Shown in pieces: positions 27,001 through 30,000 of a stretch of 64,000 bases of DNA (within the stretch, counting starts at the first letter, position 1; each line of letters starts with the position of its first letter). Location: NCBI RefSeq assembly GCF_053078305.1, contig NZ_CP166879.1; one strand, written 5' to 3'. Made by a program: the position numbers.

Positions 27001-30000
27001 GGCGCGGCCTTCCGCCACATCCTGCCCCCGGCCGGTCAGCTCTGCGATGAAATAACCGTTAATCAGAACACGTTTGCGCACCAGTCCCTGCTCGGCAAGC
27101 CAGGCAATGTGGGTGTGAACGGTGTCGCGGGACACGCGGTGGCCGTAATCATCCAGACAGTCCTGGAGCACGGATTCACCCAGTTCACCGTTGTAATCTG
27201 CCAGCGACCGCAGAATGACCAGACGCTGATCTTCAGTAATGAAATCACTCATTGCGTTTTTTTCCTTACAGCCTGCTCCAGCAGCAGTTCGTTCTGATAG
27301 GAGACAGAGCGGAGCGTGGCGTTCGTGGTTTTCAGTTCACCCCGCAGGGTCACGATTTCCACATTCAGACGGTTGACCTCGGCTTCTGTCGGCAGTGACG
27401 ACAGACGGGTTTCCACCTTCTCAACGCGGTCGGAGAGTTTTTCAAAGGCCTCGCGGGGGACAAACGTTTTGCGCATCAGCGCCATGAATATCCCGCCAGC
27501 GGTTGCCGTCGCCGAAAGGATCGGCACAACATAATCTTTAACGATGCTGACCCACATGACGGGCCTCCATGATGTTCTGGCAGTTCACACAACGGATGGC
27601 ATCCGGCACAGCAACAAGACGTGCGGCGGGGATCTCTCCGCCACAGTCCGCGCAGACACGTCTGCCCGGAGCATCCACTGCCCGGCGCTTACGTGTCAGC
27701 CGGTTACAAAGGGCGCGTTCTGATCCCCGCTCCATCACAGCCTGAGCACGATCTGAATCATCCATACCTTTTTCCTTACTTCGTCTTTCCTGCCGGAACA
27801 GCAGGCGTTCCGGCCATATCAGTAAATTCATGTTGTCGCCGCGCCTCCAGACGACGAATACTGGCCTTATCCACGTTGCAGTTCTTGATCACCGCCAGCA
27901 GTTGCAGGTTGTAAGTGACCGATGCCCCAAACGTGAACGGCTCCGGCGCAGGAGGGACCAGGCAGTCAGCCAGCCATTCAGCGGGGATCGGCACCGGCTT
28001 CACAGGCACGTATTTCACAGACGGCCCGGCGCACCCGGTCAGCCACATCATCAGGAACAGGGACAGAGGCCGCAGGCACTGCTGCCAGCGACCGGCGGAC
28101 AACGCTCTGCTGCTCCTCGCTGTGCTGAATGTTCTGTTGCTTTTCATTCGTGGCCGCCTCACTGATTTGTGAAATGAGTTGCAGGGTGTGCTGCTGATTT
28201 GCCAGCACCTGACGCGCCTCATCCCGCTCACGCACAAGCACCTGATTATTGTCTTCAAGGCGCTGCGTCTTCTGGTGCATTCCCCATATCGCGGCAACCA
28301 GTACAGCGATAGTCCCCAGCGCCGCCATGCACGCCCCGGCAATCAGGGCCGGTAAGGCGTTATTCACCGCAGCCACAGGACACCCCGTAACAGCAGTACC
28401 GCACACAGCAGCGCTATCATGAGCGGTCGCCAGAAGCGGTTCAGACTTTCGGCAAGTCGTAGCGACATAACCATTCATCCGCCGAACGGCGGGCCTCAAG
28501 GCCGGGAAGTTTCACCCCCTTTGAATAAATCCAGCGGATATACTGCTTACAGGACGCGGGCATCTGCCCGGCATTGATCAGGCGCAGAAGCGTGGAGTTG
28601 CGAAAGTTCGTTTCACCGGCCCAGAAGATCCACGAAGCCAGCGCCACCGTCTGACCACGGGTAAGCGGCACCTGAACACGCCGATCAATGGCCGCAAAGG
28701 CCCATTTCATGTCCTTTTCCAGTAGTTCCAGGCATTCTTCATCTGTCAGGGTCATACCCGGTTTCACATCCGGGCCGGTATGGCCGTAACAGATGGTGGG
28801 TGTACCGGTGGGATCGATATACGTGGAGTTTTCTTTCCCTTCCCAGTAACCGGTGTAATGCGTGGCAATCGTGAACGTCCCGGCACCGGCCAGAACAAGG
28901 GCAATCAGCTTTTTACGCAGTGGTGCGGGGAGTTTTGGCATTGTTACGCTGTCTCATGATGTTCTCTGAGTCAGCGTAACGGTGAAGGAGAGGCGGCAGG
29001 CTTTGCGGAATATCAGAAAAGTGGCGGTTGCGTTCTTGCCAGATGCAGACGGCGCTGTTCACGTATGACGGTATAAATCTGGGTTTCTGACATCCGGTAA
29101 TGGCGGCGAAGGGATTCAATCTTCTCGCCCCGGTCCCAGCGCGAAAATATCTCATTGTTTCGCAGCTCGGCAAAGAGAGATTCCCCGACCGGCAGGTAAT
29201 AACCCCGTCCGCCCATATAGGCTGCCTGAGCCGCAGCCACCTTGCGTGCCAGTTTACCGGCCAGTACCGGCTCAATCCCCTGACGCTGAAGTTCTGCGCC
29301 GGTGACTTCAACCAGTTCTGACAGGGTCCGCGGCCAGTTCTTTTTGAGAACATCATCAGGGATGTCATCAAGGCGGTCGATAAGGGCGTGCAGTTGCTCA
29401 CTGTCACCACCAAACATGCTCATCTGAGTTTCTGCCATATCAGCCTCCGGTTCTCGCGTTCCCGGTAAGTTTAAAATAAAAATCCCGCGTTGTGGCGGGA
29501 TTTGGGGTTAACGGGGAAGTGATTTTTCATACTGCCTGCAAACGGCGTCATACCCCATCAGCGTGCGTTCGGGCATTCCCATCGCGGCCAGCATTTTGCG
29601 GCGGTGCCATCGCTTGAGACGCTCCAGCACATCTGAGGCCAGGGCGGGGTGTTGCTCCAGCCACTGCCAGTTTGCCACACCTTCGCCGCCGTTCTGCGCG
29701 GCCGTCTGCGATTTCACCCAGCGGTTAAGAGCGGTTTCCGCACCATCAGAGATAAAGCCCTGCCGGTGCATCACTTTCCAGATGGCGCGAATTCTGGCGG
29801 TCACCGTACCCGGTTTTAAGGCCCGGTTAACCGGTTTCTGACGCACTTTAAAACCGCGTTTTTTGAAAACATCCAGCACGCGGGATAACTCACCGGGTGA
29901 CATATCCCGGCAACTGGTTTTGCCGGTGGCTGCCAGTAGTACGAATGTGTAGGTCTCATCATCCAGGGCAAGCTCGCGCTTTGCCACATGAATGGCGGAT

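What the first reader, a model, noticed from the sequence alone, without database searches (positions are those of the whole stretch)
27249..28941. Lysis cassette with SAR endolysin and overlapped spanins but no canonical holin
The lysozyme-family endolysin (28441-28941) has an N-terminal signal-anchor-release-type hydrophobic segment. Downstream, an i-spanin-like TM/coiled-coil ORF contains an out-of-frame lipobox (LTGC) ORF that extends past its stop, the overlapped Rz/Rz1 arrangement. No typical multi-TM holin ORF is adjacent. A small TM plus coiled-coil protein (27249-27557) occupies the position of the Mu gp25 homologue, a possible releasin-type trigger.
Basis: partly seen in the sequence, partly recalled or inferred. 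Interest (0 to 1): 0.35.

Follow-up and report, generated by a model that had tools for sequence, protein, structure and literature searches.

The report
Mu-type holin-less lysis cassette
This is the cell-bursting gene set of a Mu-like prophage, matching gene for gene the published holin-less system of phage Mu, so it is largely ordinary, but this lineage also carries a small unannotated membrane-peptide gene and a hairpin in front of the endolysin gene.

Summary
On the minus strand, 27249-28941 holds the start of the late operon of a Mu-like (transposable) prophage. It contains a GH24 lysozyme with an N-terminal SAR-type segment, an i-spanin, an overlapped o-spanin with an LTGC lipobox, a TraR/DksA zinc-finger protein and a DUF2730 protein. 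Order and homology match phage Mu gp22, gp23, gp23.1, gp24 and gp25. For Mu, Chamblee et al. 2022 showed a holin-less system in which gp25 ("releasin") frees the SAR endolysin. No multi-TM holin ORF or holin-family hit was found in the part of the prophage that lies in the window.

Two things were missed:
1. A 34-36-codon ORF (28364-28474) lies between the endolysin and the i-spanin and encodes a hydrophobic peptide. It is conserved in five lineages, absent from Mu, and has no family.
2. A strong hairpin lies just upstream of the endolysin start codon. Its 5' arm contains the late-promoter -10 hexamer. It co-varies across 12 lineages including Mu, and suggests T4 gene e-type masking of translation on read-through transcripts.

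All functions are inferred; none was tested.

The parts
29013..29438 (-). Mor/C-family late transcription activator (141 aa). It is closer to Mu C (gp21) than to Mor.
   Evidence: Pfam Mor E=3e-32 and PHROG late transcriptional activator E=3e-45. 40% identity to Mu C against 27% to Mu Mor.
28992..29010 (-). Inferred -35 / C-binding region of the late (Plys-like) promoter.
   Evidence: It aligns with the CCATAATCCC motif inside the annotated C-dependent Plys promoter of Mu and with the same region in relatives. Inference only.
28973..28978 (-). Inferred -10 hexamer TACGCT of the late promoter. The inferred transcription start is about 28967.
   Evidence: A hexamer TAnnCT sits 35-39 nt upstream of the start codon in all 12 lineages examined. 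In Mu it is TAGACT, 6 nt upstream of the start site implied by the 92-mer Plys oligonucleotide of PMC4461284. The TCAGAGAA motif around the start site is shared by Mu and the window.
28943..28980 (-). Hairpin in the endolysin leader (14-nt arms, 10-nt loop), ending 2 nt before the AUG. The 5' arm contains the -10 hexamer.
   Evidence: Inverted repeat I2, 93% complementary. RNA MFE -20.1 kcal/mol, z=-6.2, 0 of 200 shuffles as good. Co-variation: each lineage's own 5'/3' segments pair at a mean of -12.2 kcal/mol against -7.6 for cross-lineage pairs, and 0 of 20000 permutations reached the observed mean.
28441..28941 (-). SAR-type endolysin (GH24 muramidase, 166 aa). The SAR segment is residues 12-30 (nt 28852-28908).
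   Evidence: E34-x8-D43-x5-T49 motif. The basic cluster R9 K10 K11 is conserved as RKK/RKR in relatives.
28364..28474 (-). Unannotated small ORF of 36 codons (34 from the second ATG at 28468): MVMSLRLAESLNRFWRPLMIALLCAVLLLRGVLWLR. It overlaps the 3' end of the endolysin gene and the start of the i-spanin gene.
   Evidence: - Present at the same length in 29 of 30 close loci and in four more lineages, with endolysin identity down to 49%.
- The hydrophobic core is kept although 10-18 of its 36 nt have changed (simulation p 0.0005-0.014 per lineage).
- pN/pS is 0.52, against 2.43 for the alternative frame.
- The Leu codon that creates its ATG always ends in A, against 11% of other Leu codons in these genes.
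- No Pfam or PHROG family.
- In public protein sets it appears only as 'Uncharacterised protein'.
27978..28376 (-). i-spanin (132 aa from GTG 28376). The longest ORF reaches 28499, and PGAP starts relatives at 28406.
   Evidence: PHROG 214 Rz-like spanin E=1e-31. 28% identity to Mu gp23. The start codon at this position is ATG or GTG in all lineages and is preceded by a conserved GGGGTG. The longer frame carries a stop in L030 and L097.
27776..28147 (-). o-spanin (123 aa). Lipobox LTGC at nt 28031-28042, Cys39. The gene overlaps the i-spanin gene by 170 nt and runs 202 nt beyond it.
   Evidence: Pfam LysC E=7e-17 and PHROG 3001 E=8e-42. 42% identity to Mu gp23.1. ATG 28147 is conserved in seven divergent loci. 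The residue after the lipid-modified Cys is Ala.
27538..27765 (-). TraR/DksA-type C4 zinc-finger protein (75 aa; an alternative ATG at 27831 gives 97 aa), at the position of Mu gp24.
   Evidence: Pfam zf-dskA_traR E=8e-12 and NCBIfam TIGR02419 E=5e-22. Weak match to the CxxC...CxxC part of Mu gp24 (E=0.003). Good Shine-Dalgarno sequence before 27765.
27249..27557 (-). DUF2730 protein (102 aa), homologue of the Mu gp25 releasin. TMD at residues 10-28, R29 K30 at the junction, helical cytoplasmic domain.
   Evidence: Pfam PF10805 E=7e-20 (71 bits; cut-off 24.9). 35% identity to Mu gp25. The junction motif is invariant in 13 diverse homologues. AF2 model is all-helical but of low confidence (pLDDT 60). 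GGAGG lies 8 nt before the ATG.
24714..27252 (-). Context: gp26-like winged-helix protein (26962-27252), small terminase gp27 (26378-26959) and large terminase gp28 (24714-26378).
   Evidence: 63% and 57% identity to Mu gp26 and gp27.

Best explanation
This is the lysis module at the head of the late operon of a Mu-like transposable prophage. It most likely works as in phage Mu.

(1) Inferred: a C-like activator switches on a late promoter just upstream of the endolysin gene. A hairpin that contains the -10 hexamer would block endolysin translation on any transcript that reads through from upstream. Transcripts started at the late promoter begin at the end of the 5' arm and would be open.

(2) Inferred from homology: the endolysin is exported by the Sec system. 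Its weakly hydrophobic N-terminal SAR segment holds it, inactive, in the inner membrane, and the basic cluster R9 K10 K11 keeps the N-terminus on the cytoplasmic side.

(3) Inferred from homology to Mu gp25: the DUF2730 protein is an N-out/C-in membrane protein with a helical cytoplasmic domain. It promotes exit of the SAR segment from the bilayer, which activates the muramidase. Its biochemical mechanism is unknown even in Mu.

(4) Inferred: once the cell wall is degraded, the i-spanin/o-spanin complex disrupts the outer membrane.

No canonical holin takes part, so timing depends on expression of the endolysin and the releasin rather than on holin triggering.

Shown here: the genes, motifs, order and homologies. 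Not shown: any activity.
For: - Gene-for-gene synteny and homology with Mu gp21-gp28.
- Family assignments.
- The endolysin is homologous over its full length, N-terminus included, to two experimentally established SAR endolysins: Mu gp22 (PMC9239132) and phage 21 R21 (3HDE).
- Catalytic triad and SAR composition.
- Lipobox and overlapped spanin architecture.
- No multi-TM ORF and no holin-family hit in the prophage part of the window.
- The cassette order is kept in all 30 close IMG/VR loci, and the region occurs in 235 of 5426 complete E. coli genomes.
- The same phage type is recorded as a fresh insertion with a target duplication inside Stx phages, which suggests it is active.
- Promoter and hairpin evidence; T4 precedent in PMC3014915.
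Against: - No experiment was done, and no TMHMM, SignalP or LipoP was available. Topology rests on Kyte-Doolittle/Hessa sums and the positive-inside rule.
- Mu K6 and K7, which confer releasin dependence, do not align with basic residues here. The cluster is shifted to R9 K10 K11.
- The cytoplasmic domain of this DUF2730 protein is net +3 and has no His, whereas that of Mu gp25 is net -1 with 2 His.
- DUF2730 proteins also occur beside cytoplasmic endolysins, so the family's role may be broader (PMC9239132).
- A conserved single-TMD mini-ORF lies within the cassette.
- About 2 kb of the right end of the prophage lies outside the window.
- RNAalifold found no common structure for the leader on a MAFFT alignment.
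Confidence: 0.8

Rival explanations
1. The cassette is not holin-less. The conserved 34-36-aa membrane peptide encoded at 28364-28474 acts as a minimal holin- or pinholin-like depolarising trigger, or as an antiholin-like modulator, and it sets the time of SAR endolysin release. The DUF2730 protein is then an accessory.
For: - The ORF is conserved in five lineages with a preserved hydrophobic core and a preserved start codon.
- It sits in the late lysis cassette between the endolysin and the spanins.
- Small TM accessory factors can be essential in SAR endolysin systems (Lcc6 of LambdaSo).
- One variant gives sub-threshold hits to holin families (E 0.03-0.2).
Against: - It is absent from Mu-type cassettes and from L099, which also carry DUF2730, so it is not a general part of the mechanism.
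- The hydrophobic core is only 12-13 residues between Arg residues.
- Its conserved C-terminal RGVLW coincides with the Shine-Dalgarno sequence and start codon of the i-spanin.
- Its own Shine-Dalgarno sequence is weak.
- The codon-position chi-square test is not significant.
- There is no significant family match.
Confidence: 0.12
2. The N-terminal segment of the endolysin is an ordinary cleavable Sec signal peptide. The enzyme is then secreted in soluble form and controlled some other way.
For: A possible A18-G19-A20|G21 signal-peptidase site follows a basic N-region (sequence).
Against: - The hydrophobic core before that site is only 6-7 residues.
- The G/A/T-rich composition and the low hydropathy are typical of SAR segments.
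- The N-terminus aligns with those of R21 and Mu gp22, both shown to be SAR.
- R21 also contains similar small-residue triplets and is not cleaved (established knowledge of the phage 21 system, from memory).
Confidence: 0.06
3. The DUF2730 protein is not needed for lysis in this phage. It serves another late function, and the SAR endolysin releases spontaneously as it accumulates.
For: - DUF2730 proteins are paired with non-SAR endolysins in many Mu-like phages (PMC9239132).
- The charge and His content of the cytoplasmic domain differ from Mu gp25.
- The dibasic positions differ from Mu K6 and K7.
Against: - This protein belongs to the type I group, with significant similarity to gp25.
- It is paired with a gp22-type SAR endolysin that carries a basic cluster next to the SAR segment.
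- In Mu, a gp25 knockout delays lysis to about 3 h.
Confidence: 0.12
4. The cassette is an unexpressed relic in a decaying prophage.
For: An IS66-family element (2911-5443) interrupts the Gin-like invertase gene of this copy.
Against: - All six cassette ORFs are intact. The endolysin and the DUF2730 protein are identical to those of many independent loci, and the spanins are 88-100% identical.
- The invertase is not needed for growth or lysis.
- The same phage type shows fresh insertions.
Confidence: 0.08

Closest known systems
Phage Mu lysis cassette gp22 / gp23 / gp23.1 / gp24 / gp25 (Chamblee et al. 2022, mBio, PMC9239132)
   Same: - Same gene order directly after the C activator and before gp26-gp28.
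- Homologous SAR muramidase with E-x8-D-x5-T.
- Overlapped spanins with an LTGC lipobox.
- A zinc-ribbon protein at the gp24 position.
[quoted passage not shown]
- No canonical holin.
- A TAnnCT -10 hexamer at the same distance from the endolysin start codon.
   Different: - Only 28-42% identity for the lysis proteins.
- The SAR segment has 2 Gly rather than Mu's Gly run, and it is more hydrophobic (KD over 17 residues 1.68 against 1.46).
- The basic cluster is R9 K10 K11 rather than K6 K7 K9.
- The gp24 position holds a clear TraR/DksA family member.
[quoted passage not shown]
- An extra 34-36-codon hydrophobic ORF separates the endolysin and i-spanin genes, which overlap directly in Mu.
- Only one Mor/C-family gene was found in the 29.0-33.1 kb region screened, there are no gp18-20 equivalents between it and the endolysin gene, and no terminator-like site was found between them.
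Phage 21 pinholin S21 / SAR endolysin R21 (PDB 3HDE, 3HDF) and E. coli RrrD (4ZPU)
   Same: These are the closest solved structures to the endolysin (E=1e-24). The alignment includes the N-terminal P-x-LRK and the G/A-rich SAR segment.
   Different: Phage 21 uses a two-TMD pinholin to release R21. No such gene is present here, and a DUF2730 protein is present instead.
P2 LysB/LysC-type overlapped two-component spanins
   Same: The o-spanin matches Pfam LysC (PF23793). The o-spanin gene starts inside the i-spanin gene and ends beyond it.
   Different: P2 also has a holin (Y) and an antiholin-like LysA (from memory). Neither is present here.
T4 gene e (lysozyme) leader hairpin (McPheeters 1986, as reviewed in PMC3014915)
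   Same: A hairpin sequesters the translation-initiation region of the lysozyme gene. The late promoter lies in the 5' strand of the hairpin, so late transcripts lack that strand.
   Different: Here the promoter is a sigma-70, C-dependent Mu-type late promoter. Nothing has been tested. The structure is predicted from energy and from own-versus-cross complementarity only.
Lcc6 of Shewanella phage LambdaSo (bioRxiv 10.1101/2024.01.23.576932)
   Same: It is a small single-TMD phage protein that is required, alongside a SAR endolysin, for lysis. This is a precedent for unrecognised small membrane factors.
   Different: Lcc6 is 65 aa with an N-terminal TMD, is encoded far from the lysis genes, and works with a pinholin. 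There is no sequence relationship to the mini-ORF, or to the 98-aa TM protein at 30014-30310.

Membership tests
SAR endolysin (GH24, Mu gp22 / R21 type) | Phage lysozyme (GH24) catalytic domain with the E-x8-D-x5-T triad | tested here: met
   PF00959 E=6e-37. E34, D43 and T49 are present.
SAR endolysin (GH24, Mu gp22 / R21 type) | N-terminal weakly hydrophobic segment rich in Gly/Ala/Ser/Thr, preceded by basic residues | tested here: met
   Residues 12-30: KD over 19 residues is 1.39, and 10 of 19 residues are G/A/T. K3, R9, K10 and K11 lie upstream. The feature is conserved in relatives.
SAR endolysin (GH24, Mu gp22 / R21 type) | Uncleaved membrane tethering followed by release; can be released by a pinholin or by membrane depolarisation | not testable with these tools
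   This needs fractionation and Western blots, or co-expression with S21-68 as in PMC9239132.
Releasin (DUF2730 type I, Mu gp25) | The DUF2730 (PF10805) signature covers the whole protein, TMD included | tested here: met
   71.4 bits against a cut-off of 24.9. Residues 6-97 match profile positions 3-101 of 102.
Releasin (DUF2730 type I, Mu gp25) | Significant sequence similarity to Mu gp25 itself (type I of the three DUF2730 groups) | tested here: met
   tblastn E=1e-9 at 34% identity. Pairwise blastp gives 35% over 91 aa, E=3e-18.
Releasin (DUF2730 type I, Mu gp25) | N-terminal TMD with N-out/C-in topology and an RR or RK motif at the junction between TMD and cytoplasm | tested here: met
   The TMD is residues 10-28 (KD 1.80), followed by R29 K30. 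R29 is invariant in 13 homologues. The topology follows from the positive-inside rule only.
Releasin (DUF2730 type I, Mu gp25) | [quoted passage not shown] | tested here: met
   It is the fourth annotated gene after the endolysin, or the fifth counting the mini-ORF. MuA, MuB, GemA-like and Mor-family genes are present.
Releasin (DUF2730 type I, Mu gp25) | Required for release and activation of the cognate SAR endolysin | not testable with these tools
   This needs a knockout or co-expression lysis curves.
Two-component spanin, overlapped architecture | i-spanin: N-terminal TMD plus a helical periplasmic domain | tested here: met
   PHROG 214 E=1e-31. TMD KD 2.37.
Two-component spanin, overlapped architecture | o-spanin: lipoprotein signal with lipobox Cys; short, Pro-rich mature part; no Asp at the position after the Cys | tested here: met
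   LTGC with Cys39. The mature part is 85 aa with 11 Pro, and the residue after the Cys is Ala. PF23793 E=7e-17. LipoP was not available.
Two-component spanin, overlapped architecture | The o-spanin gene starts inside the i-spanin gene, in another frame, and ends beyond it | tested here: met
   28147 lies inside 27978-28376, and the o-spanin stop is at 27776.
Canonical holin / pinholin | Small late-expressed membrane protein with 2-3 TMDs (or a class III type) next to the endolysin | tested here: not met
   No multi-TM ORF on the coding strand in 2500-41000. There are only single-TMD ORFs: the mini-ORF, the DUF2730 protein, the i-spanin, and a 98-aa early-region protein.
Canonical holin / pinholin | Match to a known holin family | tested here: not met
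   No holin family reaches significance in Pfam, PHROGs or NCBIfam for the cassette or its neighbours. The mini-ORF gives only E=0.03-0.2 for one variant.
Canonical holin / pinholin | Lethal premature triggering by membrane depolarisation | not testable with these tools
   This needs a DNP or CCCP assay as in PMC9239132.

The most novel reading that the evidence does not exclude
In this lineage of Mu-like phages (E. coli/Shigella, Citrobacter, Edwardsiella and others), the lysis cassette has a further, unannotated component. It is a 34-36-aa single-pass membrane peptide encoded in a third frame between the SAR endolysin and the i-spanin. If it takes part in timing or triggering endolysin release, as a minimal holin- or antiholin-like factor or as a partner of the releasin, then 'holin-less' releasin lysis is not the whole story for these phages.
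Probability: 0.25. Interest if true: 0.6.

Novelty: new member of a known kind. Interest (0 to 1): 0.35.

Why it matters
The main finding shows that the Mu releasin-type, holin-less lysis system is widespread in resident E. coli prophages (235 of 5426 complete genomes). Current pipeline annotation misses or truncates its parts: the o-spanin is called from a codon after the lipobox, the DUF2730 protein is unnamed, and the mini-ORF is absent.

This divergent orthologue is a natural variant for probing the unknown releasin mechanism:
- Its cytoplasmic domain has no histidine and is net basic. If the protein is active, that argues against the serine-protease and acidic-microenvironment models proposed for gp25.
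- The mini-ORF and the promoter-embedded leader hairpin are testable candidates for how a phage without a holin avoids premature lysis.

Tried and rejected
An exact look-up found only 'Uncharacterised protein' entries.
- Pfam and PHROGs gave no significant family for the mini-ORF.
- The chi-square test on variable sites by codon position was not significant (p=0.14-0.76). I therefore relied on the hydrophobicity-retention simulation, pN/pS and start-codon conservation.
- The mini-ORF peptide resembles the N-terminal TMDs of Mu-type i-spanins (z 2-4.5). I treat this only as a hint of a duplication origin, because any TMD-TMD pair scores well against shuffles.
- I found no slippery site for a programmed frameshift that would join endolysin to mini-ORF or mini-ORF to i-spanin (sequence inspection).
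- The long form of the i-spanin (ATG 28478, 166 aa) is rejected. That frame is closed in L030 and L097, the ATG is lost in L029, and its pN/pS is 2.43.
- The sigma-70 consensus scan found no promoter, as expected for an activator-dependent promoter.
- RNAalifold on a MAFFT alignment of the leaders found no consensus structure because the hairpin registers differ. It was replaced by an own-versus-cross duplex test.
- AF2 on the DUF2730 protein gave a low-confidence model (pLDDT 60). It was used only for helix content, and no fold search was run.
- Rfam found nothing in 24-32 kb.
- The genome-contig scan returned only 9 loci, of which 2 have this cassette type.
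Full report
**What is in the sequence**

The region lies on the minus strand of a Mu-like transposable prophage.
- MuA (35944-38034) and MuB (34940-35872) are present.
- The repressor-side end of the prophage is at about 39256.
- The prophage runs off the start of the window.

From 29438 down to 24714 the ORFs are, in order:
1. a Mor/C-family activator
2. a phage lysozyme
3. an Rz-like i-spanin
4. an out-of-frame LysC/Rz1-like o-spanin
5. a TraR/DksA zinc-finger protein
6. a DUF2730 protein
7. a gp26-like winged-helix protein
8. 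the small terminase (Phage_Mu_Gp27)
9. the large terminase

This is the order of Mu genes 21 to 28 in the curated record AF083977.1. In that record gp22 is annotated SAR endolysin, gp23 i-spanin, Mu_55 o-spanin (lipobox LTGC) and gp25 releasin. Pairwise identities to the Mu proteins are 40% (C), 39% (endolysin), 28% (i-spanin), 42% (o-spanin), 35% (gp25), 63% (gp26) and 57% (gp27). The gp24 position gives only a weak zinc-ribbon match.

1. *Endolysin with a SAR-type N-terminus.* Confirmed.
   - The 166-aa product has E34-x8-D43-x5-T49.
   - Its N-terminus is MPKLPAPLRKK followed by LIALVLAGAGTFTIATHYT. That stretch falls below an ordinary TM threshold (KD over 19 residues = 1.39), and 10 of its 19 residues are Gly/Ala/Thr. 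Mu gp22 behaves the same way.
   - The best solved relatives are phage 21 R21 (3HDE) and RrrD (4ZPU). The alignment starts at residue 5 and so includes the SAR segment.
   - A basic cluster directly before the segment (RKK or RKR) is conserved in the closer relatives (WIN-type, L029-type, L030, L055); L097 has a Mu-like spacing (R8, K11) instead.
   - It is not in register with Mu K6 and K7.
2. *Overlapped spanins.* Confirmed.
   - The o-spanin starts at ATG 28147, which is conserved in seven divergent loci.
   - It carries LTGC with Cys39. Its mature part is Pro-rich and 85 aa long, with Ala after the Cys.
   - It shares 170 nt with the i-spanin gene and continues 202 nt past it.
   - The i-spanin most likely starts at GTG 28376 (132 aa). 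That codon is ATG or GTG in every lineage and follows a conserved GGGGTG. The longer frame is closed in two lineages.
   - RefSeq annotation of a 98.5%-identical prophage starts LysC after the lipobox and leaves the i-spanin as 'hypothetical'.
3. *No canonical holin.* Confirmed within the limits of the window.
   - A hydropathy scan of all ORFs of at least 30 aa between 2500 and 41000 found no multi-TM ORF on the coding strand.
   - No cassette member or upstream neighbour hits a holin family.
4. *A gp25-like protein.* Confirmed.
   - DUF2730 covers the whole protein (E=7e-20).
   - The TMD (residues 10-28) is followed by R29 K30. This is the junction motif that Chamblee et al. point out, and R29 is invariant in 13 diverse homologues.
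   - The rest is predicted to form two long amphipathic helices. The AF2 model has low confidence, and the heptad a/d positions are 75-100% hydrophobic.

**How it most likely works**

For Mu, Chamblee et al. (PMC9239132) showed the following:
- gp22 is a SAR endolysin.
- gp23 and gp23.1 are spanins.
- No Mu membrane protein behaves as a holin.
- gp25 is needed for gp22 release. The dependence is conferred by basic residues in the short cytoplasmic tail of gp22.

Every part is homologous and syntenic here, so the same scheme is the best explanation (confidence about 0.8). All steps are inferred. The biochemical action of the releasin is unknown even in Mu.

One detail may be useful. The cytoplasmic domain of this orthologue has no histidine, with Tyr where 90% or more of the 13 aligned homologues have His, and it is net +3. 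If the protein is active, this argues against the protease and acidic-pocket models.

**Spread**

- The cassette order is kept in all 30 close IMG/VR loci.
- The region is found in 235 of 5426 complete E. coli genomes.
- The same phage type is recorded as an insertion with a target duplication inside two Stx phages.

Between the endolysin stop (28441) and the i-spanin start there is a third-frame ORF, 28474/28468 to 28364. It encodes MVMSLRLAESLNRFWRPLMIALLCAVLLLRGVLWLR.

Evidence that it is a real gene:
- It has the same length in 29 of 30 close loci.
- It recurs in four more lineages: a Citrobacter-type lineage, L030, Edwardsiella, and L097. Endolysin identity in these goes down to 49%.
- It is absent from Mu-type cassettes and from L099, where the endolysin and i-spanin genes overlap directly.
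- The 12-residue hydrophobic core stays hydrophobic although 10-18 of its 36 nt differ (simulation p=0.0005-0.014 per lineage).
- pN/pS is 0.52 in this frame, against 2.43 in the extended i-spanin frame.
- The Leu codon of the endolysin EWLC motif is always TTA or CTA. This keeps the ATG of the small ORF. Only 11% of the other Leu codons in these genes end in A.

Caveats:
- The conserved C-terminal RGVLW coincides with the Shine-Dalgarno sequence and start codon of the i-spanin.
- The ORF's own Shine-Dalgarno sequence is weak.
- The codon-position test is not significant.
- The hydrophobic core is short.
- It has no family, and it appears in public data only as 'Uncharacterised protein'.

I rate it as probably translated (about 0.6). 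Its role is open: a lysis regulator, a relic of an i-spanin TMD duplication (weak hint), or a coupling leader.

A 14-nt inverted repeat (28980-28967 and 28956-28943) ends 2 nt before the endolysin AUG. It folds at -20.1 kcal/mol (z=-6.2).

Its 5' arm contains the hexamer TACGCT (28978-28973).
- A TAnnCT hexamer sits 35-39 nt before the start codon in all 12 lineages examined, including Mu (TAGACT).
- In Mu, that hexamer lies 6 nt upstream of the Plys transcription start implied by the promoter oligonucleotide of PMC4461284. It lies inside the annotated C-dependent promoter.

In each lineage, the 16 nt that begin at the hexamer pair with that lineage's own initiation region. The mean is -12.2 kcal/mol, against -7.6 for other lineages' regions, and 0 of 20000 permutations did as well.

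Transcripts started at the late promoter would therefore lack the 5' arm, while read-through transcripts would carry the whole hairpin. This is the logic established for T4 lysozyme gene e (PMC3014915). It would matter here because the scan found no terminator-like site between the activator gene and the endolysin gene.

This is a hypothesis (about 0.5). RNAalifold did not recover a shared structure.

**Verdict**

What it describes is the already published Mu system in a divergent, common E. coli prophage lineage: a new member of a known kind. The mini-ORF and the promoter-embedded hairpin add modest interest and are directly testable.

Noticed in passing
window 28364-28474 (-): A conserved, unannotated 34-36-codon ORF encoding a hydrophobic peptide lies between the endolysin and the i-spanin. 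It is present in five lineages and absent from Mu-type cassettes.
   Followed up: yes
window 28943-28980 (-): A strong hairpin (-20.1 kcal/mol, z=-6.2) ends 2 nt before the endolysin AUG. Its 5' arm contains the inferred late-promoter -10 hexamer TACGCT. Complementarity co-varies across 12 lineages including Mu, which resembles the T4 gene e arrangement.
   Followed up: yes
L003 6777-7407 (RefSeq NZ_AP042687.1), equivalent to window 27776-28406: PGAP starts the LysC/o-spanin at a GTG after the lipobox Cys, which loses the signal peptide. It also calls the i-spanin 'hypothetical protein' from GTG 28406, and the DUF2730 protein carries no functional name.
   Followed up: partly
window 27249-27557 (-), residue 87: The DUF2730 protein of this exact lineage has Tyr where 90% or more of the 13 aligned homologues have His. 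Its cytoplasmic domain has no His at all and is net +3, whereas Mu gp25 is net -1 with 2 His.
   Followed up: partly
window 27538-27831 (-): The gp24 position holds a clear TraR/DksA C4 zinc-finger protein, and Mu gp24 shares only the CxxC...CxxC part. An alternative upstream ATG (27831) gives an N-terminus MNLLIWPERL. That N-terminus is conserved in relatives, but it overlaps the conserved QHEF..AG end of the o-spanin.
   Followed up: partly
window 29013-29508 (-): Only one Mor/C-family gene was found in the 29.0-33.1 kb region screened. It follows the GemA-like gene directly. A terminator-like hairpin lies between them (29503-29480), and no terminator-like site was found between the activator and the endolysin gene. 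There are no equivalents of Mu gp18-gp20.
   Followed up: partly
window 30014-30310 (-): A 98-aa protein with one N-terminal TMD (residues 5-23) is encoded in the AT-richer early region (PHROG 17269, unknown function). Its topology recalls Lcc6 of LambdaSo, but there is no evidence that it has a role in lysis.
   Followed up: partly
window 2911-5443: An IS66-family element (transposase 3800-5413) is inserted in the Gin-like DNA invertase gene of the prophage, as shown by comparison with the uninterrupted copy in LC727895.1.
   Followed up: partly
window 200-2515: This segment has no counterpart, or only a diverged one, in the Mu-like phage of LC727895.1: 200-1586 does not align and 1587-2913 aligns at 86%. 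It includes a 685-aa ORF (458-2515) with a SASA sialate O-acetylesterase domain and DUF6645, probably a tail-fibre or host-range protein.
   Followed up: no
L034 3474-3800 (also L035, L036): Some relatives carry an extra 108-aa ORF between the o-spanin and the zinc-finger gene. It begins with the same MNLLTWPERL N-terminus.
   Followed up: no
window ~39256: The repressor-side end of the prophage is here, and similarity to the Mu-like insert of LC727895/LC727881 stops. The sequence beyond it is presumed host chromosome (not checked).
   Followed up: partly
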